DNA from: a virus
Lineage: Duplodnaviria; Heunggongvirae; Uroviricota; Caudoviricetes; Demerecviridae
IMG/VR virus record: IMGVR_UViG_651703040_000001
Length of the DNA stretch: 64,000 nucleotides
Strand: one strand, 5' to 3'
The translations under genes and the position numbers were made by a program. A model generated the notes under the pieces. That model saw only the letters and a program-made list of their open reading frames with translations, did not search any database and was not told the DNA's origin. Shown here in pieces: positions 10,028 through 41,872 of this stretch (position 1 is its first letter; every line of letters begins with the position of its first letter).

Positions 10028-10549
10028 TTAGACATCTAACATCCAACTAGTTTTATCATGCGAAGTGTACTTACCACCCATGATGTCTTCCAGGCGTACT
10101 GGTGATTTTGCATACTCGACACAAACGTTAATATAACGAGGATCTCCCATTAACTCAAAGTGAGTATGCCCATGTAAGTTCTTTTTACCTCTCAGCTCCC
10201 CAGGGTGTATTGGAGCATGGGAAAGCCAGAAGTTTTTATATTTAACTAGTGATTGTACGTTATCTACAACTCCTATTAAGTCTTTGAAAGATAATCCTTC
10301 TCGTTCTAAGTCGTGGTTTCCCAGAACTAACGTAGTTCTAACATTGCCAAAGAGTTTTTCGAACTTCTCCAAACCATTTCTAGATACAAATGCGTCTCCT
10401 AAAATATAGAATACTGTACGCTTATCTTTCATGGATGTAATAGTATCCATAATAAATTCATCATGCTCTTCCATAGTAGAGAAGATTGGTCTGAATTTAG
10501 TAATATTTGCATGCCCCAAGTGGAGATCACTCCAAAAGCGAACTTTCAT
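10028..10549 (-). CDS. calcineurin-like metallophosphoesterase (YfcE-like, 173 aa)
   Basis: Motifs DLHLGH, GDAF, GNHD and GHTH. The start overlaps the stop of the upstream gene (ATGA). Confidence 0.7.
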   Translation of the reverse strand: MKVRFWSDLHLGHANITKFRPIFSTMEEHDEFIMDTITSMKDKRTVFYILGDAFVSRNGLEKFEKLFGNVRTTLVLGNHDLEREGLSFKDLIGVVDNVQSLVKYKNFWLSHAPIHPGELRGKKNLHGHTHFELMGDPRYINVCVEYAKSPVRLEDIMGGKYTSHDKTSWMLDV

Positions 10550-11412
10550 TAAAGAATCCTCTGTACACCGCAGCTATCATTTTTGTCTGTGGTAAATGTG
10601 GTGATTTTGCCAGTTTCATCGTTAACTTGCGCAACCGTCAACTGCCCGTTGAAAACACCGCCAGTATCAAGATAAACACGGTTCTTATAAAGAAGTGGGT
10701 AAGGAACTCCAGTATGTCCGTGAAACACGAAATCTACCCCTTTAACTTCTGGCACTACGTTTATTAGTTCTTCCGGCATCCCTGCATACTTTTTAAAGTA
10801 TGGGTGATTTGCATCCTCAGACATATGGGAAAATACATCTTGAATAACATCACGATCCCATAGGTAGGCATCCATAAGATCCCCTAACTCATGACCTGTG
10901 GCATGTTCTAGTTGTACTACTAGATTGTCCCAATTAGGGATTTTTACTTCATTGCCACATTCTTTGTATTCAATTGGTACTGCGGCATGTGCTACACCAT
11001 ATTTTTTCCCTCTATGTAGCACAGTCATAAGTAGAGGCATTTTTTCAGCCATATCTTCGGCAATATTTTTAATGGTGTCTGCATCTAGTTCATTCATGGC
11101 CCACATACCACCATTATACATCCAATTAGCCCAATCTCCCACAATCATAAATTGATCATGATTACCACGTACACTGATAAAACGTGGATTATATAGGAAT
11201 TTGGCTAAGACTTGTAGGTTTTGTGTGCCTCGGTCAATTAAGTCACCAACACAGACAACATAGTCACGCTTTTCTTTATATCCTGCTAGTTTAAGAGCAT
11301 CTTCCAGCATATCATTACAGCCGTGAATATCTCCTACGAAGAACAGATTAGCATCGTCTGGTACTACTAACATTTCATGCAGGTTAAATTCTTTTTTCAT
11401 AATTATTCCCAA
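10549..11412 (-). CDS. Ser/Thr protein phosphatase (PPP family, 287 aa)
   Basis: Motifs GDIHGC, GDLIDRG and GNHD. Confidence 0.8.
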   Translation of the reverse strand: MGIIMKKEFNLHEMLVVPDDANLFFVGDIHGCNDMLEDALKLAGYKEKRDYVVCVGDLIDRGTQNLQVLAKFLYNPRFISVRGNHDQFMIVGDWANWMYNGGMWAMNELDADTIKNIAEDMAEKMPLLMTVLHRGKKYGVAHAAVPIEYKECGNEVKIPNWDNLVVQLEHATGHELGDLMDAYLWDRDVIQDVFSHMSEDANHPYFKKYAGMPEELINVVPEVKGVDFVFHGHTGVPYPLLYKNRVYLDTGGVFNGQLTVAQVNDETGKITTFTTDKNDSCGVQRIL

Positions 11413-28781: not shown

Positions 28782-28859
28782 TTGGTGGCTCCCCGAGGAT
28801 TCGAACCTACGTACCTTCCGGTTATGAGCCGGGTGCTCATACCATATGAGCTTGAGAAC
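28782..28859 (-). tRNA. tRNA with CAT anticodon (third copy), imperfect T-stem
   Basis: Anticodon arm CCGG-CTCATAA-CCGG. The acceptor has two GU pairs. The T-stem has only 3 clean base pairs. Confidence 0.5.
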
Positions 28860-28865
28860 CAAAAT

Positions 28866-29761: not shown

Positions 29762-30751
29762 ATGACAGAAGAAGTAGCTAAGAGTCCTGAGACCGTCGCT
29801 AGCGTTGCAGCAGAACTGCACCGTCACGAGGAATCAGATAAGAAAAAGTGGGAGAAGGTCAGAGCCTACGAAGAGAAACATCGTGAACACGATGAAGATG
29901 ATGAAGAAGATGATGATGAACATTGTCATAAAAATGGAAAACATAAAATGCAAGAACCAGTAAACGTATTCACTAGTGGCTTCCCTGGCCTACTGGGTGG
30001 TTACCCAGCAAACGCAAGTGCTTTCGGTGGTGAAGGTATGGGACTATTCGGAGCTATCCTAATCGGTGCTCTATTAACGGGCGGATTCGGTGGTTTCGGT
30101 GGATTCGGCGGACGTGGTGTAGTTGGTGATGGTACTGCAGTTGATGCAGTACTTCAGAACCAAGATACCGCTAGTATTCTAGCAGCTATTAACACTACTC
30201 GTACAGAAGCTAATCAGGGTACTGGAGCTGTTTTAAGCGCAGTTAACAATGGTTTTAGCCAGACATCCCAAAACCAGAGCCGTGATACTCAGTCTGTACT
30301 AACTACGATCTATGGTACAGGTGCTAATCTGTCTAATCAGATCTGCCAGGAAACTCGCAACGTTATTCAGGGTCAGTTCGATCTTTCTCGCCAGATTGAT
30401 CAATCTTTCGCAGCTAACCAGATAGCTCGTGCACAAGATAAGTTTGATTCTGCACAGATCGCTTTCCAGCAGACTTTACAAACTAATAACCAGTTTGCCG
30501 CTGTTCAGGCTCAGATGTGTGCTAACCAGAACTCTCTGGAACGTCAGATCGCTGAATGTTGCTGTGAACTTCAGACTGCGATCGCGGGTGTAACTACTGC
30601 GCGTATCCAGGATGAGTTAGACGCGTGTCGCCTACGTGAAGCAATCGCTGCGGGTAGCGGTGCTAACGGTCAGGTAATTAATCAAATCGCTTTAAGTCTT
30701 GGTACTATCACTCAGACTCTGGCTGGTCTGCAGGCTAAACTGCCGGCTTAA
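29762..30751 (+). CDS. low-complexity membrane protein (about 330 aa)
   Basis: Strong SD TAGGAGGTG. N-terminal His-rich acidic segment, a glycine-zipper hydrophobic stretch (GFGGFGGFGG), and a Q/N/S/T-rich tail with a CCC cluster. Codons are high-expression-like. Confidence 0.7.
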   Translation: MTEEVAKSPETVASVAAELHRHEESDKKKWEKVRAYEEKHREHDEDDEEDDDEHCHKNGKHKMQEPVNVFTSGFPGLLGGYPANASAFGGEGMGLFGAILIGALLTGGFGGFGGFGGRGVVGDGTAVDAVLQNQDTASILAAINTTRTEANQGTGAVLSAVNNGFSQTSQNQSRDTQSVLTTIYGTGANLSNQICQETRNVIQGQFDLSRQIDQSFAANQIARAQDKFDSAQIAFQQTLQTNNQFAAVQAQMCANQNSLERQIAECCCELQTAIAGVTTARIQDELDACRLREAIAAGSGANGQVINQIALSLGTITQTLAGLQAKLPA

Positions 30752-30772
30752 TATTAAGGGGAGGAGCCCATT

Positions 30773-31192
30773 ATGAGTAAATATGGTTTTGTAAATAACG
30801 GACTTAATCAAAGTATGGGCTCCCAGCAGCCCGTTCCGGGTCTGGATAACCCCTACTTACAACAGTTGCAACAGCGTTTAGCAGAAGCGCAACAGATGCA
30901 GCAACAACTCCAGCAAAACCCTGGAAGTGTGAGTCCTATGCAAATGATGCAGCAAATGAGCGGGCAGTCGCAAATGCCTCAACAAACGCAGCAACAGATG
31001 CCGCAGCAGCAGCAAGTTCAGCAACAAACCCAACAACCGCAGGTTTCTGCGGAAGGACAGGCAGTACTAGCCCTTTTCGAAGACTTCGCAAAGACAGAGG
31101 ATGGGAAGCAGCTTGTATCACTTATGGGTAAGTTTAATAGCTTCTGCCAAAGCCAAATTGCAAAAGCTCAAAATAGTGGTAATAACTCCTAA
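30773..31192 (+). CDS. Gln-rich (prion-like) protein (139 aa)
   Basis: SD GGGGAGGAG. The Q-rich region spans about 60 residues. The C-terminal part looks folded. Confidence 0.65.
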   Translation: MSKYGFVNNGLNQSMGSQQPVPGLDNPYLQQLQQRLAEAQQMQQQLQQNPGSVSPMQMMQQMSGQSQMPQQTQQQMPQQQQVQQQTQQPQVSAEGQAVLALFEDFAKTEDGKQLVSLMGKFNSFCQSQIAKAQNSGNNS

Positions 31193-31201
31193 GGAGGAAT
31201 T

Positions 31202-31396
31202 ATGTGTTGCAGAAAATCTGTTTCGTGCTGCCCAATGCCTGTAGCACGTTGTTGCTCTCCAGCAATGTTTACGCAAATACCGGCGTTCAATCCGTTTGCC
31301 TTTAAGCCTACTCTTATCCTGCCCCCTAGAGTAGATTTTCAGTCAAGATTGGCCTCCCGTATGGGTGGTTGCTGTAACAAGAGTATATGGTTCTAA
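31202..31396 (+). CDS. Cys-pair-rich small protein (64 aa)
   Basis: SD AAGGAGGA. Four CC doublets (MCC..SCC..RCC..GCC). Terminators follow at 31412-31445 and 31456-31492. Confidence 0.55.
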   Translation: MCCRKSVSCCPMPVARCCSPAMFTQIPAFNPFAFKPTLILPPRVDFQSRLASRMGGCCNKSIWF

Positions 31397-31411
31397 AGAA
31401 CCAAACAATAA

Positions 31412-31492
31412 AGCCCCTAGTCGAAAGACTTAGGGGCTTTTTCTTTTGCCTTAAATACAGAAAAGCCCGCGCTCTCGGAGAAAACGCGGGCT
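31412..31492. terminator. pair of GC hairpins between convergent genes (bidirectional terminator)
   Basis: AAGCCCCTAG...CTTAGGGGCTTTTTC and AAAAGCCCGCGCTCTCGGAGAAAACGCGGGCTT. Confidence 0.7.
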
Positions 31493-31516
31493 TGGTTCGA
31501 AGATTACGTGTAACTA

Positions 31517-32464
31517 TTACTTGTTACGCATATCCATAATCATTTGGCCATCGTAGCCAGTGCCAACCACAGTCTGCGGAACACCACCTTGATACTTCTG
31601 AGCACGAATCATTTCAACTTCCAGTTGCTTCCAGCGAATCATCTCAGGAGTAATGGTACGTTGTAATGCGGCGTTAGCTTCAGCTTCTTTCTTAGCTGCA
31701 TACAGTTTAGCATCAGCGTCACGTTCATTGGCAATAGCTTGGTTGTTGCGAGCTTCACGATCTGCTTCTGCTTGTTTAACTTTCTGCTGAGCTTCTTGTT
31801 CAACACGAGCCAGTTCAGCTTTAGCAGCATTAACCTGTTCTTCACGAACTTTTGTATTCTGTACCTGTTCCATGATTACCGGTGGCAAAGTAATATCCTG
31901 AAGGAACACCTGCTTAACTGTGTAACCATATGGGCGTGCATACTCTTCAACTTCCTGTTGAATTGCAGTTTGCAATTGAGCCTGAATTTTAGCATCAAAC
32001 AAATCTTGTGCTTTAGGTACAGACTTACCAAACTCACGAATAGTAGACAGTAATTTTTCAGTTACATATTTGTCTAACGCTTGATCCTGAGTACCTGCGT
32101 TAATACGGTTAATCGGTGCCTTAGAACCATCAAACTGCAACATAACAGTCAGGTCAACAGTGGATTTAAACTTATCCTGACTAGGAACCTGAAGTTTATC
32201 TAATTTTAGAGCAATATCTTTAGTACTAAAAGTATCGAAAGAAGCGAAAGGATTTACAATATGAAAGCCGGGTAATACTGGGCTAGGGTCAACTTTACCC
32301 AGGAAAGTCTGGGTTTTAACAGTACCGTCTTGAACAACAGTATAAGAGTTAAGGGCCAGAACTAAACCTACCAAACCAACTGCAGCACCAATCCCCCAAC
32401 GTTTAATAGTACGAATTACTTTCTGCTCAGAAGTCAGTTCTTTCATATTTTTAGTATTAAACAT
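31517..32464 (-). CDS. SPFH/band-7 (HflC/HflK-like) membrane protein (315 aa)
   Basis: N-terminal TM helix, an SPFH core, and a long A/E/Q-rich coiled-coil C-terminus, matching the HflK/C architecture. Confidence 0.7.
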   Translation of the reverse strand: MFNTKNMKELTSEQKVIRTIKRWGIGAAVGLVGLVLALNSYTVVQDGTVKTQTFLGKVDPSPVLPGFHIVNPFASFDTFSTKDIALKLDKLQVPSQDKFKSTVDLTVMLQFDGSKAPINRINAGTQDQALDKYVTEKLLSTIREFGKSVPKAQDLFDAKIQAQLQTAIQQEVEEYARPYGYTVKQVFLQDITLPPVIMEQVQNTKVREEQVNAAKAELARVEQEAQQKVKQAEADREARNNQAIANERDADAKLYAAKKEAEANAALQRTITPEMIRWKQLEVEMIRAQKYQGGVPQTVVGTGYDGQMIMDMRNK

Positions 32465-32498
32465 ATATTTCCTTTGTTTTAGTTACAGTTAATAAAAT

Positions 32499-32573
32499 TG
32501 GCCGAGGTGACAGGATTCGAACCTGCATAAAGGAATTTAGAAGACTCCTGCCTCTCCCTTAGACTACACCCCG
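32499..32573 (-). tRNA. tRNA-Arg (TCT)
   Basis: Acceptor CGGGGTG/CACCTCG. T-arm GCAGG-TTCGAAT-CCTGT. Anticodon arm GGAGT-CTTCTAA-ATTCC. Confidence 0.65.
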
Positions 32574-33074
32574 TTTAAGTATTTTTAAGAACTCTCGTAA
32601 AAACTCTTAAAAATACAGACGATACCGGGAGAGTCATAAGTCTCACTCATTAAGTATTTCAAGACAAAATACGGTAACGTCTATTATTTTCCAGTTTAAG
32701 TCAGGGTGACTTAGTGGTTATGTCCTGCGGTATATTGAGGACTCGGTTAGGCTTGGGGTCATGACTTCCCGCCTTTTGCTGCTACTCAACAGGAATTATC
32801 GCGAATTACCTGTGCTATTGTGCACCATTAGTGACATCTCTCATGTCAGCATTTCCCACTTTGTGGATAGCTTGAAAAACTACTCCGATATGGAGAAAGA
32901 ACTTCACTATCCTAGAATACCTTCTAAAGTTCTTCTTTAGCCTGGACATAGTTAAATCGTAATAAAACTATTCAGCAGACTGGTTGGTTAGTCTGGAACC
33001 AACTACCGCGTGGTTTAGGCAGTGCGCAACTAACCTCGGAAGCTTTTACGTTAAAAGCATCAGTTATCCAGTTC

Positions 33075-33150
33075 TTACCGACCGTAGGATTCGAACCTAC
33101 ATCTTCCACCAGTTACGGCTTGATAATACCAATTATACTAGGACGGCAGT
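33075..33150 (-). ncRNA. tRNA-like element
   Basis: T-arm GTAGG-TTCGAAT-CCTAC and a plausible acceptor GCCGTCC/GGTCGGT, but no clean anticodon stem and no CCA. Confidence 0.3.
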
Positions 33151-33356
33151 GTTACTACATAAGTGATTTCCACACCCCACTATTTATAAATTAGAGAAGA
33201 GTTTAGGGGAGAGGTTTCAGACGCCTCATTTTACACGTTCTAGCCACTAACCGGGATTGCCGCCCCCTGTGTGCTAGTTTTACAACTAACCCACCGACTC
33301 TATTCAATGCGCTCCGGTTGGGATTCTGCATTCAGCGTAATCGGCCCGCTGTTCCC

Positions 33357-33415
33357 TAATTTATGAATATATTATACAGAATTTAAAGGCATTTAGCAAA
33401 TAAATTTTTAATTAA
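33357..33415 (-). promoter_or_regulatory. early promoter module in front of an ~800-bp non-coding stretch
   Basis: Minus sense: TTTGCTAAATGCC...TGTATAATATATTCATAAATTAGG. No ORF follows before tRNA-Arg. Confidence 0.55.
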
Positions 33416-33851
33416 ATTCGCCAGCAATCTGAGCAGCAGTACCACCATCATAACGCCCAGGAAATTCTTCCTTAATCGCTTTCATCAGCATACCTTTTGT
33501 AATTCCAGGGTTTAGCTTAACTAATTCTGCAAAGTATTTACGAATCTCAGTATCAGATAACTGAGGTGGCAGATACTCCTGCAACCACTTATTTAGAATG
33601 TATTCATATTGAGCAGACTGCAAACTATAACTATCAAGATCTTGACCATGAAGTTTAGCTTTCATCTGGTTAATGCTTTTTAGTTGAGCTTTGAGATAAG
33701 ACACAAATTGTTCAGAAGTGATGAAATCTTTATCAATACGCTGAAGATCCCCAATTATGGTCTGATAGCTTTTAGCGACTTCTTTATCAGAACCATTAAA
33801 CTTAGAATCCTGCAAAGCTCTGCGCAAAACATCTAAAATATTCTCTTCCAT
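33408..33851 (-). CDS. GatB/YqeY-domain protein (147 aa)
   Basis: The C-terminal half (YLPPQLSDTEIRKYF...GMLMKAIKEEFPGRYDGGTAAQIAGE) aligns, from memory, with E. coli YqeY. Confidence 0.65.
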   Translation of the reverse strand: MEENILDVLRRALQDSKFNGSDKEVAKSYQTIIGDLQRIDKDFITSEQFVSYLKAQLKSINQMKAKLHGQDLDSYSLQSAQYEYILNKWLQEYLPPQLSDTEIRKYFAELVKLNPGITKGMLMKAIKEEFPGRYDGGTAAQIAGEFN

Positions 33852-34025
33852 TATTTCATTCCTAACGCCTGGTTAAAAGATTGTTCTGTCATAACTGCTG
33901 AGACTTTGGCGAAATCAAACTTTTTAGGGTTCGTAGTGATTTCAGCAACGTTAGAAGTTTTAACAGTTTTCGTAGTACGAATACCGCGGGTGTTAACACC
34001 AATAATTACAACTGATTTCATATTT
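33852..34025 (-). CDS. small hypothetical protein (57 aa)
   Basis: Not in the track. ATG preceded by a GAGAGGAAGCG SD. Promoter module at 34026-34090. Confidence 0.4.
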
Positions 34026-34089
34026 CGCTTCCTCTCATTAATTTATGGAAGTATTATACGGAAATTTAAGTATTTAAGCAAGTAAATTT

Positions 34090-34557
34090 TTAAGTTTTAG
34101 TGACAACAGGTTTATAGAATGTATGTCCCTTAATCTTAGTTGTTTTCTTAAATTTCTTTGTCCAGTAAGGTTTATCTTTACCACTATGGAAGTATAGTGC
34201 TCCATATGTAGGATCTTGTGGTAAATCAACGTAGTATATCACTCTAGCTAAATTCTTAGCGGTTTGCCAAGCCTCATCAGTTTTATCAACTTTTGGTCTC
34301 TTAGATACCCAAGAGAACTGGTTAGACTGATATACTACTTTACAGTAGGAATCTGGGAATTTACCGGAGTTTACACGGTTTTTAGTAACATGTGCAATCG
34401 CCGTCATTCCCTTTATGCCCTCACCACGACTCTCGAAATAGATATTTTTAGCAATGCAATCTATTTCTTTTGCATCGTGCGATGCCTGACTACTAAAGCT
34501 GAAGGTAAGGGCAGCTACTAAAAGCAAAGCTGCCTTCATTCTTTTTACTCCTGCCAA
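34090..34557 (-). CDS. secreted SleB-like cell-wall hydrolase (155 aa)
   Basis: Signal peptide plus an SleB/Hydrolase_2-like domain. Confidence 0.6.
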   Translation of the reverse strand: MAGVKRMKAALLLVAALTFSFSSQASHDAKEIDCIAKNIYFESRGEGIKGMTAIAHVTKNRVNSGKFPDSYCKVVYQSNQFSWVSKRPKVDKTDEAWQTAKNLARVIYYVDLPQDPTYGALYFHSGKDKPYWTKKFKKTTKIKGHTFYKPVVTKT

Positions 34558-34862
34558 TCATATTCAACACGATTGGGATTTTCTTTATACCCTAAGTCAA
34601 GCAAATCATTACGCATATTTTGCTTAGCTACTGGGTTCGAGGTTACTAGTACCACTTTCTTTGGTCTCTGCCCAAATTCTAAGAGTAAACGAAGAATTTG
34701 ATAACCTTCCATACCATCTACAGCCAAGTCATTATCCATATAAACGAAGTGGCCGGTGGTATCAGTTTTATTCAGAAACTCTACAGCGGCTTCTGGGGTT
34801 CGAATGATAATGTCCATTCCGTGAAGATTACGCACATCATCAATCAAAATATGAAAAGTCAT
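34545..34862 (-). CDS. receiver(REC)-like small protein (105 aa)
   Basis: ILIDDV...DNDLAVDGMEGYQIL...VVLVTSN layout, resembling a CheY-like fold. Confidence 0.4.
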   Translation of the reverse strand: MTFHILIDDVRNLHGMDIIIRTPEAAVEFLNKTDTTGHFVYMDNDLAVDGMEGYQILRLLLEFGQRPKKVVLVTSNPVAKQNMRNDLLDLGYKENPNRVEYDWQE

Positions 34863-35304
34863 AATAGCCTCGTTTCATCAATTTAAAAATATATTATACA
34901 TATAATTTAGTAGATTAGCAAATACATTTTTAAATTGTGAAACTAGTAAACCGATAAACAGCCTAGAGGCGCCACAGGCCATATCTTATGAGCCATGTAC
35001 CTTTGATCTAGGGTTTGAATCATCAACGAATACTTTGCATCTTTTAGCTTTAGAAGTTTAGAAGTTTGAGTCCTTTAAACTTTTCAGCTTTCATACTTAA
35101 ATGTTGATCTTTGAAGTTGTGTCGGTAATATCAACGACGCTTTGTTCTTACGTGTCAGCTTAAAAGGCTGGTGTAATAAACATAATCTCCAATAGATTAT
35201 ACTTTATAGTATGGTCAGCGGTCCTATTTAACCTCGTATTTCAACCGCTGCTGCGAGGTAAGATGCTTGGGCTTTCGTCTACCGATTTACTAGCTTTTAA
35301 ATTA

Positions 35305-35943
35305 TTACTCTACTTCAATGAAGGTAGAGGCGTTAGACTCGGACAGAACAAAGTCAACATTTGTTGCAAAGTCCTGATATTCCTCGTCATGCTGCTTAAT
35401 CAGCTTTTCCAGTTCCAACGGATCAATCAAGAATGGAGTATTCTTGAGTTCCAGCAGGTTGAGCTGCATTTTAACTTCATCTTCGGAAGTTTTCTTATCG
35501 CGGGTAGCCATGCTATCCTGCAAACGCTCATATTTAGCATCAAACTGTGCTTTCTGCGTATTAAACTTAACCGTAGCGGCATGGAACTGCTTACGCATGT
35601 TAGCCAGCAGTTGAGCTTTAAGTTCCATAGAACGCTTAGCTTCAATTGCTTCCGCAACAGTCATCTTACGAGAGCCAATCTCAACGATTGTTTCCGCATT
35701 GCTTTTAATCAGAGCAGCTTTGATACGATCACGCTGAGACATCATATCCAGGAGAGATTGGAAATCTGCCTTAATACGAGCAGACAGATCGTCTACTTCG
35801 ATTGCAGCGCCAACTACAACCTTATTTTTATCCTTACCCTCACCAACAGCGATCAGAAGCTGCTGTTCAGTAGCTTTACGGATTTTAGCTTCCAGAGATT
35901 TGATGGTTGCCAGAGCACGAGTTTTAGAAATACGAGTAGTCAT
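35305..35943 (-). CDS. hypothetical coiled-coil protein (212 aa)
   Basis: ORF on the coherent strand. An antisense plus-strand ORF was rejected. Confidence 0.55.
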   Translation of the reverse strand: MTTRISKTRALATIKSLEAKIRKATEQQLLIAVGEGKDKNKVVVGAAIEVDDLSARIKADFQSLLDMMSQRDRIKAALIKSNAETIVEIGSRKMTVAEAIEAKRSMELKAQLLANMRKQFHAATVKFNTQKAQFDAKYERLQDSMATRDKKTSEDEVKMQLNLLELKNTPFLIDPLELEKLIKQHDEEYQDFATNVDFVLSESNASTFIEVE

Positions 35944-35995
35944 TGTTTCTTCCTTATATGAAGTTTAAGATTTGAATTTGTTTAAATTCGGTCTA

Positions 35996-36178
35996 TTACA
36001 GACCAATTGCCAGCAGAGTGCGCAGAACAGTATCGTTACTGTTATCAATTTTAGGATTAGCGCGATTTAGCAGATCAAAGATTTTCTGGATACCTGATTG
36101 ACGTTCAGCCATACGACGGATACCCAGATTACGAGTAGCTTTCTTACCATTTTTACGAACATTTTTAGATACTGGCAT
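35996..36178 (-). CDS. small basic protein (60 aa)
   Basis: K/R-rich ORF. Promoter module at 36180-36250. Confidence 0.45.
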   Translation of the reverse strand: MPVSKNVRKNGKKATRNLGIRRMAERQSGIQKIFDLLNRANPKIDNSNDTVLRTLLAIGL

Positions 36179-36248
36179 ATTTGTTTTCCTTTTATTGTTT
36201 TCTCAAATTTATGAATATATTATACAGAATTTTGGAGCCGGAAGCAAA

Positions 36249-36950
36249 TCAAATTTTCATTTTTTCGATCATAGCTGCAACACAATAGCTTTCAACTAAG
36301 GCATCAAATGCAGGATCATGCTTAACCGGATAGATCCCATAACGAATAGTGTCCATCTTCTCCATTTTAGCTATTGCCCAGCTAATACCTTCGGTCTCTA
36401 GAGCCTTATAACTGTATCCAGCTTGCATCCAGAGATTACGAAGAGATCGAACATTACCCAAATTCCAGAATTTCCACGGAACTACCTCTTCATTGGTTCC
36501 AGCATGGAACGTGTTTGCAGAGTAGATAGTCATATCAAACTCTGGGCCATTGCCATAATACAAAGCATTTTCGCCTAGAGCCAACTCCATAATATTTTGA
36601 GCCATAGAGAAGGCAGCATAGTTAGAGCCGAGTTTATTAGTACAATGATGTTTACCGTTTTGGAAGGCAATCAGTTTTGGATTACGTTCCTTCATAGCTT
36701 CCATAATGTGGATAGCAGACGGGCTATTTTTAGCTTGATCCATCCAGAATGCTAGAGTAGATGCTGTAACTTTGGCACCAGAATTAAGCTGATCCTGCAC
36801 ATCCAAAGTAACAAATACTAGATCAGGGTCTTTATCAATCCCATGCATAGCCACAAAAGCGAAAGAAGGCATTGCGATATGAGTAGTACCACAATCTCCT
36901 GGGGTTCCTAGAGATTCAATATCTAGCATACCAAATGGTTTTACTTTCAT
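36249..36950 (-). CDS. DEDDh 3'-5' exonuclease (DnaQ-like, 233 aa)
   Basis: Exo I motif LDIESLG and Exo III motif HDPAFDA. Confidence 0.7.
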   Translation of the reverse strand: MKVKPFGMLDIESLGTPGDCGTTHIAMPSFAFVAMHGIDKDPDLVFVTLDVQDQLNSGAKVTASTLAFWMDQAKNSPSAIHIMEAMKERNPKLIAFQNGKHHCTNKLGSNYAAFSMAQNIMELALGENALYYGNGPEFDMTIYSANTFHAGTNEEVVPWKFWNLGNVRSLRNLWMQAGYSYKALETEGISWAIAKMEKMDTIRYGIYPVKHDPAFDALVESYCVAAMIEKMKI

Positions 36951-36978
36951 AACTTATCCTTTATTGTGTAGAAAACTA

Positions 36979-37215
36979 TTAAAGAGCTGTCTCTTTAATA
37001 GACTCCCACTTCTTGGGGTCTTTAAAACCAGGAAGCATATCCTCACTGACATCCCAGTTTTCTTCCATATAGAAGTCCGGCCATTCATTCCAGCTACCTT
37101 CCAGCTCTTCATAGCAGGTGTCCATTACCTCATGACTAGAAAGTCGTGTATAATCTCTAGCTGACTTATGAGTGCTAGCACGGTTAAAATCGTTCTTTGC
37201 TACAAAATTACGCAT
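36979..37215 (-). CDS. acidic small protein (78 aa)
   Basis: ORF. Terminator at 37231-37248. Confidence 0.45.
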   Translation of the reverse strand: MRNFVAKNDFNRASTHKSARDYTRLSSHEVMDTCYEELEGSWNEWPDFYMEENWDVSEDMLPGFKDPKKWESIKETAL

Positions 37216-37256
37216 AGTTTCTCCAAATAAGAGGGGCTTTCGCCCCCTGATTTAAA

Positions 37257-37473
37257 TCACTTGCCCAGCAGTTTAAGGATATTTTCCATAATAGTTTGGG
37301 CAGATTTTTCACTCTTGTTAGTTTCAGCCAACTTTAAAGCGAGTTCTTCCTGCTGTTTCTGAATATCCGCAGCAATTTTTTTGATCAGCCTCAATACGAG
37401 CTTGAAGCTCATCAGTGATAGTGGTAAAGGAAGCAACAATTTCAGTAACAGAACGTGGTTTCTTAGAGAACAT
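37257..37473 (-). pseudogene. small ORF split by a +1 frameshift at an A7 tract
   Basis: Frame A (MFSKKPRSVTEIV...EADQKN) and frame B (IAADIQKQQEELALK...LLGK) meet at AAAAAAA near 37376-37385. Confidence 0.4.
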
Positions 37474-37537
37474 AAAAAATATCCTTGATTAGTTAGAGAA
37501 TTAGTCGATTGTAGGGGCTTTCGCCCCTATTTATCTA

Positions 37538-38053
37538 TTACTTCGCTTTACGCTTGCGAGCTGGTTTAGCAGATTTACGAGCAGAATCACCCGTGAACTT
37601 AATGCCTACACCGTAACACAGAGCACGAACATTATCTTTACTATACTCTACGCCAAAGATATTTGGCTTAACAGAACCAAACTGTCCACGAGTATCACGC
37701 AATACATCTGCTGTTGGTTTACGCTTCTGGTTAACTGCCTTCTCATAGTCTTTCATAGACATACCATTACGAGAGAACAATTCAGCCCCAGCGTTAAAGC
37801 TCAGGGAAACTGGGACAGATTTGTGGCCGTAATTTTCTACATACATAACCATTTTGTAGGATTTACGGGTGGCATTTTTAGCTTTAGGCTTCTGACGAAT
37901 CGGAGCCGGACTATTCAGTGCTTGCGCAGCCTGAGCATCGGTAGGATGCTTACGCAGGTGGCGTTCCAGACGAGCTTTGCGATTAGCCTCGGTCTGTGGG
38001 AAAGTTTTAACTGCCGGAGCTGCTTGAGTTTTTGCGTTTTTCTGCTTAGCCAT
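37538..38053 (-). CDS. basic nucleic-acid-binding-like protein (171 aa)
   Basis: K/R-rich termini. Promoter module at 38054-38125. Confidence 0.55.
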   Translation of the reverse strand: MAKQKNAKTQAAPAVKTFPQTEANRKARLERHLRKHPTDAQAAQALNSPAPIRQKPKAKNATRKSYKMVMYVENYGHKSVPVSLSFNAGAELFSRNGMSMKDYEKAVNQKRKPTADVLRDTRGQFGSVKPNIFGVEYSKDNVRALCYGVGIKFTGDSARKSAKPARKRKAK

Positions 38054-38136
38054 TATTTATTTTCCTTTTTGTTTATCAATTTATGAAGTATATTATACGA
38101 GAATTTGAAGCGTTTAGCAAATGAATTTTTTAAAAA

Positions 38137-38415
38137 TTATCTACCAACCATCTTAGCTTGTTCGGCATCTGAGACATATTGATACGCTCCTTTATTATAC
38201 GCCGGGGCAGTACACATTTTCTTACGCTCAATCTCTTCTTGAGCTTTTCTTTCGCGTTCAGCTAATTCTTCGTCCAGGTAAACTAAACGTTGCTCTGGAG
38301 GAGGTGGAAGACGTGTTTCTGGCTCACCAATATTAGCCTTTCTTATTTGACGAGGTGATTGTGCACGTTTTCTCAATGGTTTAAATCCTAATGAATTTGA
38401 GTTATAAATCCGCAT
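38137..38415 (-). CDS. hypothetical protein (92 aa)
   Basis: ORF. Promoter module at 38415-38480. Confidence 0.5.
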   Translation of the reverse strand: MRIYNSNSLGFKPLRKRAQSPRQIRKANIGEPETRLPPPPEQRLVYLDEELAERERKAQEEIERKKMCTAPAYNKGAYQYVSDAEQAKMVGR

Positions 38416-38491
38416 AAAGCCCTCCTCACTTTCAATACTAATATTATACTAAATTAGAGAGCTTTAAGCAAGAGAATTTTTAATTTATTTA

Positions 38492-38980
38492 TTACATCTC
38501 AGCCATTTCAGCTTCAGTAATAACTGTGTTACATAAGGCATCTACAGCTTCATTACCACTAATACCAGAATGTCCTTTAACCTTAATAAAGGTAGGGTTA
38601 GTGTTATGAAAGTTGATATACTGCTGTGTTAATTTAAATGCTTCCTGCCAAAGTTCTAGATTAAGAGGAACTTCACCATCTGCTTTCTTCCAGCCTTTCC
38701 TTTGCCAAGAAAACATCCAACTTTCCATGCCATTTTTGCAATAAGCAGAGTCAGTATAGATAGCAATTGGTCTATTATCTTTTTTAACAGACCAACGTAG
38801 AGCTTCTACAATAGCTGTGAGTTCCATCTCATTATTTGTAGTTTTAGGATTATAACCAGATTTAGAACCTAAACGATCGTCGTTATCATCATAGACAATA
38901 AAACCCCAAGCACCTGGACCTGGGTTAGACTTACAAGCACCATCTGTGTAAATGTGGAAAACCGACATTATACCTCCCAA
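38492..38980 (-). CDS. rnhA: ribonuclease H (162 aa)
   Basis: IYTDGACKSNPGPGAWG...TNNEMELTA...DSAY...H motifs of RNase HI. Confidence 0.8.
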   Translation of the reverse strand: MGGIMSVFHIYTDGACKSNPGPGAWGFIVYDDNDDRLGSKSGYNPKTTNNEMELTAIVEALRWSVKKDNRPIAIYTDSAYCKNGMESWMFSWQRKGWKKADGEVPLNLELWQEAFKLTQQYINFHNTNPTFIKVKGHSGISGNEAVDALCNTVITEAEMAEM

Positions 38981-40730: not shown

Positions 40731-41872
40731 AAGAAATCTCCAAATTCATTACCCAGATCTTTCAGAGTATCAGTAGAGGTCTCAGTTACCTGACCTACAC
40801 GGTAGGCTGCACCAATCTGGATTTCTTGTGGAGCAGGCTGTAGAGAAGTAGTATCCAACCAGTTCATGATCCACGGAATAGGGTTTTTGGTGATTACTGG
40901 TAAGTGACTAGGCCATTTTACACCGATGTGCATAAATGCATTACGCCCCACAAAATATAGGTACTCTTCTAGAAGTTCTGCGTTCAAACCAATCAGACTA
41001 CGACCTTTGAAAATGAAATGACCCCATTCAATTTCAGTTTTCAGAGTTTTCAGGAGCTGTGCTGGTGCTTTAGCCACTGCTTCATTTACCAGATCTTTGT
41101 CAAATTGCTGAAACATAATCTGGATGATTGCTTTGGACATCTGAGTGTGCAGAGCTTCATCTTTAGCGATTAATTGCAGATTTTTAGCAATACCTTGCAG
41201 AATATCGTTCTCTGCTAATGCAAAGGTACATGCAAAGGATGCGTAAAACTGCATTGCTTCCAGACCATAGATCGCAAAGTAAGCGTCTAATAGTTTAGCC
41301 TGAGTTTCACGTTTAACTTCAGGGAACTCAGTTTCTGGATATGTATTGTCGCCACGATGATCGCGTACTGCGATGAAATACTGACCTAACTGGTACAGTT
41401 CATCGAATAGTTCAACAGAATCAGCGATGCGCGCGAATGCTTCTTGGTTTTTGGTTACAGAATCAATAAATTCTGCTGGATCAGTCAGCACATTACGAAT
41501 AATATTGCTATAAGCACGACTATGCAGGTCTTCAAAATAGCTCCACTGTTTGAGCATACCTTCCAATTCTGGACGACTTACAAGCGGCATAATAGCTGCT
41601 TCAGGGGCACGACTGATAAAGGAATCAGTTTGAGTTTGCCATGCTAAGTTCAGGAGTGTAATTTCCTGAATTTCTCGTGGGAGATTACCCCACTGCTTTT
41701 TATCAGCTTCAAGACTAATTTCAGTTTCAGTCCAGAACTGGGAACGCTGCAACAGAGCTAATCGCTCTAGTTCGGGGTGTGCCACACGCACATAATCTGC
41801 GATACCCAAAGAATCACCGAGGAAAAGATCAGCGTTAGTATGATCCCATTCTAAGTTAAGTAAAGTAGTCAT
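40727..41872 (-). CDS. nrdB: ribonucleotide reductase class Ia beta subunit (381 aa)
   Basis: Ferritin-like di-iron ligand pattern (E...EALH...E...H) and an acidic C-terminal tail. Confidence 0.85.
   Translation of the reverse strand: MTTLLNLEWDHTNADLFLGDSLGIADYVRVAHPELERLALLQRSQFWTETEISLEADKKQWGNLPREIQEITLLNLAWQTQTDSFISRAPEAAIMPLVSRPELEGMLKQWSYFEDLHSRAYSNIIRNVLTDPAEFIDSVTKNQEAFARIADSVELFDELYQLGQYFIAVRDHRGDNTYPETEFPEVKRETQAKLLDAYFAIYGLEAMQFYASFACTFALAENDILQGIAKNLQLIAKDEALHTQMSKAIIQIMFQQFDKDLVNEAVAKAPAQLLKTLKTEIEWGHFIFKGRSLIGLNAELLEEYLYFVGRNAFMHIGVKWPSHLPVITKNPIPWIMNWLDTTSLQPAPQEIQIGAAYRVGQVTETSTDTLKDLGNEFGDFL

What the first reader, a model, noticed from the sequence alone, without database searches (positions are those of the whole stretch)
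32574..33415. Promoter-driven ~800-bp non-coding unit ending in tRNA-Arg and holding a tRNA-like fragment
A full early promoter module at 33357-33415 points into about 790 bp that has no credible ORF. The longest minus-strand ORF is about 44 aa with rare codons. The stretch holds a degenerate tRNA-like structure (33075-33150) and ends at tRNA-Arg (TCT). It therefore looks like a long tRNA precursor whose 5' part could yield stable small RNAs of unknown role, much like T4 species 1 and 2.
Basis: partly seen in the sequence, partly recalled or inferred. Interest (0 to 1): 0.6.

Follow-up and report, generated by a model that had tools for sequence, protein, structure and literature searches.

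The report
T5 "RNAX": large structured phage RNA
The 790-base gap is the Salmonella phage Spc35 copy of phage T5's "RNAX", an annotated but never explained non-coding RNA, and comparison across the T5-like phage family shows it is one large folded RNA with an anticodon-less tRNA look-alike built into it.

Summary
A strong sigma-70 promoter (33399-33371, minus strand) points into about 790 nt with no credible ORF. That stretch holds a tRNA-like element (33147-33076) and runs up to tRNA-Arg(UCU) (32573-32499).

The window is Salmonella phage Spc35. The stretch is the ortholog of a feature already annotated in phage T5 (AY543070) as "rnaX: RNAX, stable RNA with unknown functions". A second T5 record calls the tRNA-like a tRNA pseudogene. 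The existence of the unit is therefore already known.

What the tools add:
- Homologous units of 0.65-1.6 kb occur across Demerecviridae.
- They show no coding signal and match no Rfam family except tRNA.
- Base-pair covariation is strong (19 and 24 pairs with compensatory changes, against 0-8 in slid controls).
- The tRNA-like keeps acceptor, D and T arms and the elbow nucleotides but has no anticodon loop. It sits on a covarying 12-bp leader-trailer helix.
- The 3' domain is a multi-helix junction with an invariant AGUCAUGA loop, followed by a hairpin and then a near-invariant 17-bp terminal hairpin.
- BF23 has naturally lost most of the unit, so it is dispensable in the laboratory.

It looks more like a single modular "ornate" RNA, analogous to GOLLD/ROOL beside tRNA islands, than a precursor of small RNAs. 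Function is unknown.

The parts
33371..33415 (-). Early sigma-70 promoter module: -35 TTGCTA at 33399-33394, -10 TATAAT at 33376-33371, A/T-rich upstream tract. The inferred start is near 33364.
   Evidence: 10 of 12 consensus matches. (0 expected by chance). Ortholog of T5 'promoter P 16-17'. The start site is inferred, not measured.
32574..33364 (-). RNAX-type non-coding RNA, about 791 nt from the inferred start to the base before tRNA-Arg.
   Evidence: 100% identical to Spc35 HQ406778. Ortholog of T5 misc_RNA rnaX 40848-41566. No coding signal. Rfam finds only tRNA.
33186..33364 (-). 5' domain D1, closed by helix P1 (33364-33353 pairs with 33197-33186). It contains hairpin D1a (CAGCG/CGCUG, 33351-33333) and variable hairpins. 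The interior (about 33352-33204) is absent from T5 and DT571/2, where P1 remains as a simple hairpin.
   Evidence: P1 and D1a keep pairing through different sequences in the Pectobacterium phages (UAGUAAAGA/UCUUUACUA; CAGCA/UGCUG).
33148..33182 (-). Conserved leader. Nearly invariant GUGGGGUGU(G/C)GAA is followed by the 5' strand of the leader-trailer helix (33167-33154) and AACACU.
33076..33147 (-). Anticodon-less tRNA-like element. It has a 7-bp acceptor stem with a U5:U68 mismatch and an unpaired 1:72, a D arm and a T arm (UUCGAAU loop). The 'anticodon arm' is a 3-4 bp stem with the 6-nt loop GUAACU. No CCA is encoded.
   Evidence: Rfam tRNA 35.5 bits. Covariation in acceptor, D and T stems. 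U8, A14, G18G19 and 15:48 are kept. The anticodon arm is replaced by unrelated hairpins in other lineages.
33059..33072 (-). 3' strand of the leader-trailer helix (ACUG-G-AUAA-C-UGAU), which pairs with 33167-33154.
   Evidence: 12 pairs, 7 with changes on both sides, 98.9% of cells paired. Per-sequence pairs are listed.
33042..33058 (-). Hairpin H3 (GCUUUU AACGU AAAAGC), directly after the leader-trailer helix.
   Evidence: Pair types include CG, UA and AU at one position and CG and GC at another.
32714..32859 (-). 3' multi-helix junction. It is closed by GUGG (32859-32856) pairing with CCAC (32717-32714) and contains four hairpins (Ha, Hb, Hc, Hd).
   Evidence: RNAalifold and pair counts. Hd has 5 of 5 pairs compensatory and is 100% paired. 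The closing helix is invariant, so it has no covariation support.
32759..32766 (-). Invariant apical loop AGUCAUGA of hairpin Hc. It contains the palindromes UCAUGA and GUCAUGAC.
   Evidence: the loop is identical in Tequinta-, Epseptima- and Sugarlandviruses, Enterobacter, Yersinia and Pectobacterium phages, while the stem sequences differ. It is unique in the window.
32687..32711 (-). Hairpin He (AGUCA CCC UGACU, 32711-32699) followed by the conserved AACUGGAAAA.
   Evidence: In T5 this element is duplicated on both sides of an 87-nt insertion.
32579..32616 (-). Near-invariant 17-bp AU-rich terminal hairpin, ending 5 nt before tRNA-Arg.
   Evidence: 12 pairs never vary, 5 vary on one side only. 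(unique in the window). It is also present in Klebsiella and Pectobacterium phages.
32499..32573 (-). tRNA-Arg (anticodon UCU) with encoded CCA, directly downstream.
   Evidence: ARAGORN. (Rfam, 49.3 bits).

Best explanation
The region encodes the Spc35 ortholog of T5 RNAX, a large, modular, highly structured non-coding RNA made from a strong early host-RNA-polymerase promoter.

Proposed biogenesis (inferred):
- The RNA is transcribed in one piece with the downstream tRNA-Arg. No terminator-like site separates them from the SPFH gene either, so that gene may be on the same transcript.
- RNase P cleavage at the 5' end of tRNA-Arg would leave RNAX ending 5 nt after its 17-bp terminal hairpin. 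That hairpin would protect the 3' end and make the RNA stable.

Architecture (shown by comparison):
1. A 5' domain closed by helix P1.
2. A conserved leader, then a 12-bp leader-trailer helix that carries an L-shaped tRNA look-alike without an anticodon, flanked by hairpin H3.
3. A lineage-variable middle part.
4. A multi-helix junction with an invariant AGUCAUGA loop.
5. A conserved hairpin plus the AACUGGAAAA motif, then the terminal hairpin.

Proposed mode of action (inferred): it acts in trans as an RNA. It would be an accessory scaffold of the phage's tRNA and anti-defence island. It would present a tRNA-shaped handle and invariant loops to tRNA-binding host or phage factors, working as a decoy or sponge.

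Status of each step:
- Shown here: the identity with RNAX, the non-coding nature and the fold.
- Inferred: co-transcription, the RNase P-defined 3' end, and the decoy/scaffold role. I put the decoy/scaffold role at about 0.25.
For: - Identity and synteny with T5 rnaX, 'stable RNA with unknown functions'.
- The promoter.
- No coding signal.
- Homologous units in 526 phage records spanning Markadamsvirinae, Sugarlandvirus, Mccorquodalevirinae and Priunavirus.
- Covariation in alignment A2: 19 of 38 pairs have changes on both sides, against 9.8 +/- 1.7 in shuffles (0 of 500 reach it) and 2-7 when slid. 88.9% of cells are paired, against 34-43% when slid.
- Covariation in alignment A3: 24 of 69 pairs, against 16 +/- 2.2 in shuffles (0 of 500) and 0-8 when slid. 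90.6% paired, against 38-50%.
- P1 and D1a are compensated in the Pectobacterium phages.
- The sense strand pairs better than the antisense: 88.9% against 80.3%, and 90.6% against 83.5%, with 81 and 100 G:U cells.
- tRNA elbow nucleotides are kept, and the 15:48 pair covaries.
- The anticodon arm is replaced by unrelated hairpins in other lineages.
- The unit is separated from tRNA-Arg by ORFs in Klebsiella phages.
- The terminator-like site lies only after the SPFH gene (T5 annotation).
- The unit lies in the tRNA-rich region that has been called an anti-defence island.
Against: - No expression, end-mapping or stability data were available. 'Stable RNA' rests only on the T5 record's annotation, and its 719-nt extent simply fills the space between promoter and tRNA.
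- BF23 has lost the 3' two-thirds of the unit and grows normally on E. coli K-12, so any function is conditional.
- Eps7-type and Providencia phages replace the tRNA-like with a plain hairpin, so tRNA mimicry cannot be the universal core activity.
- The A3 structure was derived from the same alignment it was counted on, which inflates its pair counts.
- The whole-RNA folding energy is only modestly better than shuffles (z = -1.76).
- Many sequences are close relatives, so compensatory cells are not independent events.
Confidence: 0.72

Rival explanations
1. Processed precursor. The transcript is a long tRNA-Arg precursor that is cut at the tRNA-like element (RNase P at its 5' side, other RNases at its 3' side, or RNase III in the leader-trailer helix). 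This would yield several smaller stable RNAs, and these pieces are the functional species.
For: - The tRNA-like has a 7-bp acceptor stem and an intact elbow, which are the features RNase P reads.
- M. smegmatis YrlA, an embedded tRNA mimic with a 7-bp acceptor, is cleaved by RNase P and receives CCA (PMC4201824).
- The T5 record lists many small stable and tRNA-like RNAs in the same region.
- The leader-trailer helix stacked on the acceptor stem would make about 19-20 bp. By my own knowledge that is the size of an RNase III substrate.
Against: - The leader is base-paired to the trailer, not single-stranded.
- The 1:72 position is unpaired in all lineages.
- Long-range helices (P1, GUGG/CCAC) tie distant segments together.
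- Lineages without the tRNA-like keep the leader, trailer and H3.
- T5's annotators recorded a single RNAX feature.
Confidence: 0.25
2. Evolutionary debris. The stretch is a spacer made of a decayed tRNA gene and remnants of homing-endonuclease traffic. It is transcribed only because it lies between a promoter and tRNA-Arg and has no function of its own.
For: - The region is a hotspot of insertions and deletions. HNH ORFs are inserted. T5 carries an 87-nt insertion flanked by a duplication. Deletions exist in T5/DT571-2 and in BF23.
- Annotators call the tRNA-like a pseudogene or tRNA-OTHER.
- The unit is dispensable in BF23.
Against: - Compensatory changes are found in more than 40 base pairs across subfamilies.
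- Loops and leader are invariant while the stems around them change.
- The architecture is retained from Tequintavirus to Pectobacterium and Providencia phages.
- The insertions respect helix boundaries: T5 keeps P1 as a hairpin.
Confidence: 0.07
3. Self-assembling ornate RNA. RNAX is a functional analogue of GOLLD and ROOL and forms RNA-only homo-oligomers. The palindromic AGUCAUGA loop would act as an intermolecular kissing contact.
For: - It shares their context: a phage genome, beside a tRNA island, with a tRNA-like element inside the RNA.
- It shares their size and layout: 0.65-1.6 kb, a conserved 3' part and a variable 5' part. GOLLD and ROOL are described this way in PMC12286853.
- The invariant apical loop contains a 6-8 nt palindrome.
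Against: - There is no match to the GOLLD or ROOL models even at E <= 10.
- The palindrome is shortened in phage My1, to AGUCAUGC.
- The same loop could instead pair with the 3' strand of hairpin He. This is read from the sequence and has not been tested.
- No structural data exist.
Confidence: 0.1
4. Y-RNA-like tether. The leader-trailer helix plus tRNA-like module would mimic a bacterial Y RNA and bind Ro60/Rsr or its partners.
For: - The layout is a long stem formed by flanking sequences that carries a tRNA-like domain, with a 6-nt 'anticodon' loop as described for D. radiodurans Yrn1.
- A GUCGAA or GCCGAA sequence lies just 5' of the helix in most lineages. It resembles the YrlA GNCGAAN0-1G motif (PMC4201824; sequences).
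Against: - Spc35 and T5 have GUGGAA, and no lineage has the trailing G of the motif.
- YrlA joins its stem at the anticodon position (a permuted topology), whereas here the stem joins the acceptor.
- No Rfam Y RNA or YrlA match was found.
- No rsr gene appears among the annotated neighbours.
- By my own knowledge, E. coli K-12, a normal T5 host, lacks Rsr.
Confidence: 0.04
5. Cis-acting element. The stretch is either a long structured 5' leader that regulates the downstream SPFH/band-7 gene, or a DNA-level site such as an origin or a protein-binding region.
For: - No terminator-like site lies between the unit and the SPFH gene.
- A palindromic motif is conserved.
Against: - tRNA-Arg lies in between and would be excised.
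- In Klebsiella, Epseptimavirus and Pectobacterium phages the downstream genes differ, yet the RNA is kept.
- G:U pairs favour the transcribed strand, which argues against a duplex-DNA site.
Confidence: 0.05

Closest known systems
Phage T5 RNAX (misc_RNA rnaX, AY543070 40848-41566; also annotated in DT571/2)
   Same: It is the ortholog. It has the same promoter (P 16-17) and the same neighbours: the YqeY-like gene upstream, tRNA-Arg and the SPFH gene downstream. Identity is 92.8% over the shared 79%.
   Different: Spc35 carries a 147-nt 5' domain interior that T5 has lost. T5 carries an 87-nt insertion flanked by a duplicated hairpin. The T5 record gives no structure or function, and I found no paper on RNAX in the library.
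GOLLD and ROOL large ornate RNAs
   Same: They are phage or prophage encoded, lie next to tRNA islands, are hundreds of nucleotides long with many covarying helices, and have no known function. tRNAs are sometimes embedded in the GOLLD linker. GOLLD has a conserved 3' region and a variable 5' region (PMC12286853).
   Different: There is no similarity to either covariance model. The hosts are enterobacterial T5-like phages. Oligomerisation has not been tested.
Transfer RNA (Rfam RF00005)
   Same: The internal element has acceptor, D and T arms, the T-loop UUCGAAU, U8, A14, G18G19 and the 15:48 pair. It scores above the Rfam gathering threshold.
   Different: It has no 7-nt anticodon loop and no stable anticodon. 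ARAGORN calls it SeC(tca) or Ser(act) in some phages and nothing in others. No CCA is encoded, position 1:72 is unpaired, and its ends are locked in a leader-trailer helix.
Bacterial Y RNAs (YrlA, D. radiodurans Yrn1)
   Same: An RNA with a long stem made by flanking sequences plus a tRNA-mimicking domain. Yrn1 also has a 6-nt 'anticodon' loop (PMC4201824).
   Different: The topology differs from YrlA, the motif matches only partly, and there is no rsr neighbour and no model match. Here the module is one part of an RNA about ten times larger.
Phage T4 species 1 and 2 (stable RNAs of the T4 tRNA cluster)
   Same: These are stable phage RNAs of unknown function encoded among tRNA genes and released from tRNA precursors. 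This rests on my own knowledge and was not tested here.
   Different: Those RNAs are about 120-140 nt. RNAX is 650-1600 nt with domain architecture. No sequence comparison was made.

Membership tests
T5 RNAX (annotated stable RNA) | Sequence homology to T5 40848-41566 | tested here: met
   blastn: 92.8% identity over query positions 168-797. Alignment.
T5 RNAX (annotated stable RNA) | Same genomic position: promoter P 16-17 upstream, tRNA-Arg directly downstream | tested here: met
   compared.
T5 RNAX (annotated stable RNA) | Accumulates as a stable RNA in infected cells | not testable with these tools
   Only the annotation note in AY543070 supports this. No paper was found.
tRNA (RF00005), for the internal element | Cloverleaf that scores above the Rfam gathering threshold | tested here: met
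   35.5 bits against a threshold of 29. Stems covary.
tRNA (RF00005), for the internal element | 5-bp anticodon stem with a 7-nt loop that carries a conserved anticodon | tested here: not met
   The arm is a 3-4 bp stem with a 6-nt loop in a shifted register. Other lineages have unrelated hairpins with 3-5 nt loops. ARAGORN's calls are inconsistent.
tRNA (RF00005), for the internal element | Free, processable ends with a 3' CCA (encoded or added) | tested here: inconclusive
   No CCA is encoded, and the flanks form a 12-bp helix. Processing in vivo is unknown.
GOLLD / ROOL | Match to the family covariance model | tested here: not met
   No hit at E <= 10 on the 821-nt slice or on the 1.15-kb STWB21 version.
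GOLLD / ROOL | Phage-encoded, near a tRNA island, more than 500 nt, many covarying helices | tested here: met
   Family description from PMC12286853.
GOLLD / ROOL | RNA-only homo-oligomeric assembly | not testable with these tools
   The only hint is a palindromic invariant loop.
YrlA / bacterial Y RNA | GNCGAAN0-1G motif in the 5' strand of the terminal stem | tested here: not met
   Most lineages have GUCGAA or GCCGAA, but Spc35 and T5 have GUGGAA. None has the trailing G, and the motif lies 5' of the helix rather than in it.
YrlA / bacterial Y RNA | Encoded next to a Ro60/Rsr gene | tested here: not met
   The annotated neighbours are a cell-wall hydrolase, a YqeY-like protein, an SPFH protein and HNH endonucleases. 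The whole genome was not scanned for Ro60.
YrlA / bacterial Y RNA | tRNA-like domain with T and D arms | tested here: met
   The stem joins at the acceptor, not at the anticodon position as in YrlA.
Protein-coding gene | A conserved open reading frame with codon-position substitution bias | tested here: not met
   At least 12 stops per frame. Mismatches are equal across the three codon positions. Indels are mostly not multiples of 3. T5 has a 1-nt deletion inside the 44-aa ORF.

The most novel reading that the evidence does not exclude
RNAX is the founding member of a third class of large 'ornate' phage RNAs, alongside GOLLD and ROOL, and is specific to the T5-like family Demerecviridae. It would work as an autonomous RNA machine. 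It either self-assembles through its invariant palindromic loop, or uses its embedded anticodon-less tRNA mimic to trap host tRNA-directed defence nucleases or tRNA-processing factors. This would explain why it sits in the phage's tRNA and anti-defence island and why it is lost without cost on defence-poor laboratory hosts.
Probability: 0.15. Interest if true: 0.85.

Novelty: already known. Interest (0 to 1): 0.5.

Why it matters
T5 is a classic model phage. Its record has carried "RNAX, stable RNA with unknown functions" since the genome was deposited, without structure, family or mechanism. I found no paper on it in the library, and Rfam has no model for it.

This analysis shows that the unit is a covariation-supported multi-domain RNA kept across a whole phage family. 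It contains an anticodon-less tRNA mimic mounted on a helix, and loops that never change.

That turns an annotation footnote into a defined target for experiments. The helices and loops to mutate are now specified. BF23 provides a natural deletion, and the Eps7 and Providencia phages provide natural variants in which a hairpin replaces the tRNA-like.

The finding also adds a Gram-negative, genetically tractable example to the unsolved problem of why phages place very large structured RNAs next to their tRNA genes.

Tried and rejected
- A first model paired window 33182-33178 with 33159-33155 (helix L1). It showed only one-sided changes and overlaps the far better supported leader-trailer helix, so I dropped it.
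- A short helix between the leader (N)CGAA and the UUCG(N) after H3 shows one compensated pair: C-G in most lineages, G-C in Tequintavirus. That is probably a single evolutionary event, so I left it as a lead.
- Small hairpins inside the leader (GUG...CAC in two registers) were not consistent between lineages (reading).
- The IMG/VR scans returned only close relatives.
- The metagenome pattern GGGTGTSGAA...AACACTG was too loose. Of 120 loci, only one (L127, human gut) was a true homolog by nhmmer. The genome-contig scan was therefore not used.
- Literature searches for RNAX or T5 stable RNAs found nothing relevant.
- Rad, the anti-retron factor of the same island, is a protein and not this RNA.
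- The upstream YqeY-like (tRNA-binding-domain) protein was considered as an obligate partner. It has a homolog next to the unit in the Pectobacterium phage (39% identity). However, it is found in only 3 Klebsiella phage records, while about 80 Klebsiella records carry the RNA. It is therefore not obligate.
- Paralogs of the modules were looked for in the window and in the T5 tRNA region. Only T-arm similarity to tRNAs was found.
- Whole-RNA folding energy was only weakly informative: z = -1.76 for the sense strand and -1.48 for the antisense.
Full report
**What is there.** The window is Salmonella phage Spc35, a T5-like phage. The 1,031 bases around the finding are 100% identical to HQ406778/NC_015269.

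On the minus strand the order of features is:
- a YqeY-like ORF (33851-33408; Pfam YqeY, E = 1.7e-5);
- a promoter, TTGCTA-17-TATAAT, at 33399-33371 (none expected by chance for the extended module);
- about 790 nt without a credible ORF;
- tRNA-Arg(UCU) at 32573-32499;
- an SPFH/band-7 gene (32464-31517);
- a terminator-like hairpin at 31493-31463.

Minus-strand ORFs inside the gap are at most 45 aa. Rfam finds a second tRNA-type match at 33147-33076. It scores 35.5 bits against a gathering score of 29, with the anticodon arm unaligned. ARAGORN does not report it.

**It is an already annotated feature.** In the T5 record AY543070 the homologous stretch (40848-41566) is annotated as misc_RNA "rnaX: RNAX, stable RNA with unknown functions". 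It is preceded by "promoter P 16-17" and followed directly by tRNA-Arg. The DT571/2 record copies this annotation.
- The same T5 record lists seven other stable or tRNA-like RNAs of unknown function in the tRNA region: RNAI, RNAIII, RNAIV, RNA1, RNA2, RNA2H and RNA3.
- The other T5 record, AY587007, marks the internal tRNA-like as a tRNA pseudogene.
- Other records call it tRNA-OTHER, tRNA-Sec or tRNA-Ser.
- I found no paper on RNAX in the searchable library.

**It is not coding.**
- Every frame on both strands has at least 12 stops.
- Substitutions between Spc35 and relatives at 75-90% identity fall equally on the three codon positions (for example 77, 80 and 78).
- Most indels are not multiples of three.
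- T5 has a 1-nt deletion inside the 44-aa ORF.

**Distribution.** 526 phage records carry a recognisable homolog. I read representatives from:
- Tequintavirus;
- several Epseptimavirus groups;
- Sugarlandvirus (Klebsiella phages);
- Enterobacter phage KKP_3711, phage Eos and Yersinia phiR2-01;
- Mccorquodalevirinae (Pectobacterium phages DU_PP_V and My1);
- partly, Priunavirus (Providencia phage PSTCR5).

Unit length runs from 650 nt to about 1,600 nt. The differences are modular:
- T5 and DT571/2 lack a 147-nt interior of the 5' domain.
- T5 has its own 87-nt insertion flanked by a duplicated hairpin.
- Some Epseptimaviruses carry 200-300 nt of extra GC-rich hairpins.
- Some phages have an HNH endonuclease ORF or a 169-aa ORF inserted at module borders.

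Nothing similar occurs elsewhere in the window or in the T5 tRNA region. A loose motif scan of metagenomes gave a single true homolog.

**Secondary structure and covariation: 5' domain.** The first 12 nt of the inferred transcript (33364-33353) pair with 33197-33186 to form helix P1.
- In T5 the interior is gone and P1 remains as a plain hairpin.
- In the Pectobacterium phages both strands have changed and still pair.
- The same holds for the first internal hairpin, where CAGCG/CGCUG becomes CAGCA/UGCUG.

**Secondary structure and covariation: tRNA-like module.** In an alignment of 23 distinct sequences I counted the leader-trailer helix, the cloverleaf and hairpin H3.
- 19 of 38 pairs have changes on both sides. 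Shuffles give 9.8 +/- 1.7 (0 of 500 reach 19). Sliding the 3' partner by 1-3 columns gives 2-7.
- 88.9% of cells are paired, against 34-43% when slid.
- The strongest element is a 12-bp helix between the leader (33167-33154) and the trailer (33072-33059). Seven of its pairs are compensated and 98.9% of its cells are paired. I derived it from single-sequence folds, not from the alignment.

The tRNA-like element therefore sits on top of a long helix.
- Its acceptor, D and T stems covary.
- U8, A14, G18G19 and the T-loop are kept.
- The 15:48 pair switches from A:U to G:C in the Pectobacterium phage.
- The "anticodon arm" is a 3-4 bp stem with a 6-nt loop in a shifted register. In Klebsiella, Yersinia and Pectobacterium phages it is an unrelated hairpin with a 3-5 nt loop.
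- No CCA is encoded, and position 1:72 is G:U or G:A.
- In Eps7-type phages and in Providencia PSTCR5 a simple hairpin replaces the whole tRNA-like, while leader, trailer and H3 stay.

**Secondary structure and covariation: 3' domain.** RNAalifold on 14-17 sequences gives a junction closed by GUGG (32859-32856) and CCAC (32717-32714) with four hairpins. It is followed by the hairpin AGUCA-CCC-UGACU, the motif AACUGGAAAA, two more hairpins and a 17-bp AU-rich terminal hairpin (32616-32579).
- 24 of 69 pairs have changes on both sides. Shuffles give 16 +/- 2.2 (0 of 500). Sliding gives 0-8.
- 90.6% of cells are paired, against 38-50% when slid.
- This structure was predicted from the same alignment, which inflates the figures. 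Even so, individual hairpins are convincing, for example Hd with 5 of 5 pairs compensated.
- The apical loop AGUCAUGA of hairpin Hc is identical in every lineage, including the Pectobacterium phages, while its stem is rebuilt from different sequences.
- The terminal hairpin hardly varies. In Klebsiella phages ORFs separate it from tRNA-Arg. It therefore marks the end of the RNA unit, not a tRNA leader.

**Strand.** The proposed pairs fit the promoter-sense strand better than its complement: 88.9% against 80.3%, and 90.6% against 83.5%. There are 81 and 100 G:U cells that would be A:C on the other strand.

**Comparison with known families.**
- Rfam 15 gives nothing but tRNA at E <= 10. This holds for the 821-nt slice and for a 1.15-kb Epseptimavirus version. 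The RNA is therefore not GOLLD, ROOL, a Y RNA, tmRNA, RNase P RNA or any other curated family.
- In what it looks like, the nearest analogues are GOLLD and ROOL. Those are large ornate RNAs of unknown function in phages and prophages, often near tRNA islands. tRNAs sometimes sit in the GOLLD linker, and GOLLD has a conserved 3' region and a variable 5' region (PMC12286853).
- The helix-plus-tRNA-mimic module recalls bacterial Y RNAs (PMC4201824). The YrlA motif GNCGAAN0-1G is matched only partly, since Spc35 and T5 have GUGGAA. The topology also differs, and no rsr gene is nearby.

**Dispensability.**
- The known laboratory deletions of T5 stop short of RNAX. T5Mos lacks 30661-38625 (PMC11464382).
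- BF23, a close relative of T5, keeps the promoter, the 5' domain, the leader and the first two-thirds of the tRNA-like. At the T-loop sequence GGTTCGAATCC it is fused to the 3' end of another tRNA. It has lost the rest of RNAX, tRNA-Arg and the SPFH gene. This agrees with the report that BF23 has no tRNA-Arg (PMC10644984).
- RNAX is therefore not needed for growth on E. coli K-12. Much of the tRNA-rich region shares this property, and it has been described as an anti-defence island (bioRxiv 10.1101/2023.03.15.532788).

**How it most likely works.**

Shown here:
- a conserved, non-coding, strongly structured RNA gene behind an early promoter;
- an embedded tRNA mimic that cannot decode;
- invariant single-stranded motifs.

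Inferred:
- The transcript continues through tRNA-Arg.
- RNase P cutting at the tRNA's 5' end leaves RNAX with the terminal hairpin 5 nt from its 3' end, which would explain its stability.
- The RNA acts in trans as a scaffold or decoy that offers a tRNA-shaped surface and fixed loops to tRNA-binding host or phage factors.

I hold the identity and the structured-RNA statement at about 0.9. I hold the specific decoy/scaffold mechanism at about 0.25. That remains possible and needs end-mapping.

**Verdict.** The unexplained part, a family-wide, modular, kilobase-scale RNA with a mounted tRNA mimic and no entry in Rfam, is of moderate interest and is now experimentally approachable.

Noticed in passing
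window 28786-28860 (-): Rfam finds a tRNA here (40.3 bits) that ARAGORN did not list. By position, next to tRNA-Ser(GCU), it probably corresponds to T5 tRNA-Ile2(CAU).
   Followed up: partly
L190 (BF23 OR083247) 10240-10585, minus strand: BF23 carries a deletion whose junction lies in the shared T-loop sequence GGTTCGAATCC. It fuses the RNAX tRNA-like to the 3' end (…TCGGGGAGCCACCA) of another tRNA. The deletion removes the RNAX 3' domain, tRNA-Arg and the SPFH gene. This looks like recombination between tRNA T-loops.
   Followed up: partly
L001 (T5) about 2010-2097; corresponds to window ~32699: T5 has an 87-nt insertion inside RNAX, flanked by a direct duplication of the hairpin-plus-motif AGTCACCTTGAC(T/A)TAAACTGGAA.
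   Followed up: no
L027 717-1199 (mar003J3); L023 and L017 likewise: In some phages an HNH homing-endonuclease ORF (Pfam HNH_3, E = 1.2e-11) sits between the promoter and the leader, in place of the 5' domain of the RNA.
   Followed up: partly
L024 2168-2677; also L058 2030-2539, L063 1626-2135, L064 1451-1960: Many Epseptimaviruses have a 169-aa ORF with no Pfam match inserted exactly between the terminal hairpin of the RNA and tRNA-Arg.
   Followed up: no
window 33408-33851 (-): The upstream gene is a weak YqeY/GatB-tail-like protein (25.4 bits, below Pfam's cutoff of 27). Records name it variously 'tRNA amidotransferase' or 'recombination related exonuclease'. A 39%-identical homolog lies next to the RNA in Pectobacterium phage DU_PP_V, but the gene is almost absent from the Klebsiella phages that keep the RNA.
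   Followed up: partly
window 32759-32766 and 32699-32711 (-): The invariant loop AGUCAUGA is complementary to the 3' strand (UGACU) of the nearby hairpin AGUCA-CCC-UGACU. In Pectobacterium phages the complementarity extends to 7 nt (AGUCAUG with CAUGACU). This could be a pseudoknot or a switch. Neither partner varies, so it cannot be tested by covariation.
   Followed up: no
window 32856-32871 (-): The GUGG that closes the 3' junction could instead pair with a CCAC 3 nt upstream (CCAC-AAA-GUGG; CCGC…GUGG in Epseptimaviruses). This would be a possible alternative conformation.
   Followed up: no
L069 (Providencia phage PSTCR5) 3327-4073: This 746-nt non-coding gap holds a diverged 5' domain, an isolated T-arm-like hairpin (GAGGTTCGATTCCTC), the conserved leader, a hairpin in place of the tRNA-like, the trailer and H3. 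I did not see the 3' junction or the AGUCAUGA loop.
   Followed up: partly
L127 (human gut metagenome contig, 2141 nt, coverage about 251x) 242-396: This was the only true homolog among 120 metagenome pattern hits, probably from a T5-like phage in a gut sample.
   Followed up: no
window 31463-31493 (-): A strong terminator-like hairpin (14 pairs) lies after the SPFH gene. It corresponds to T5's annotated 'efficient bidirectional rho-independent transcription terminator', so the promoter at 33399 may drive RNAX, tRNA-Arg and the SPFH gene as one unit.
   Followed up: partly
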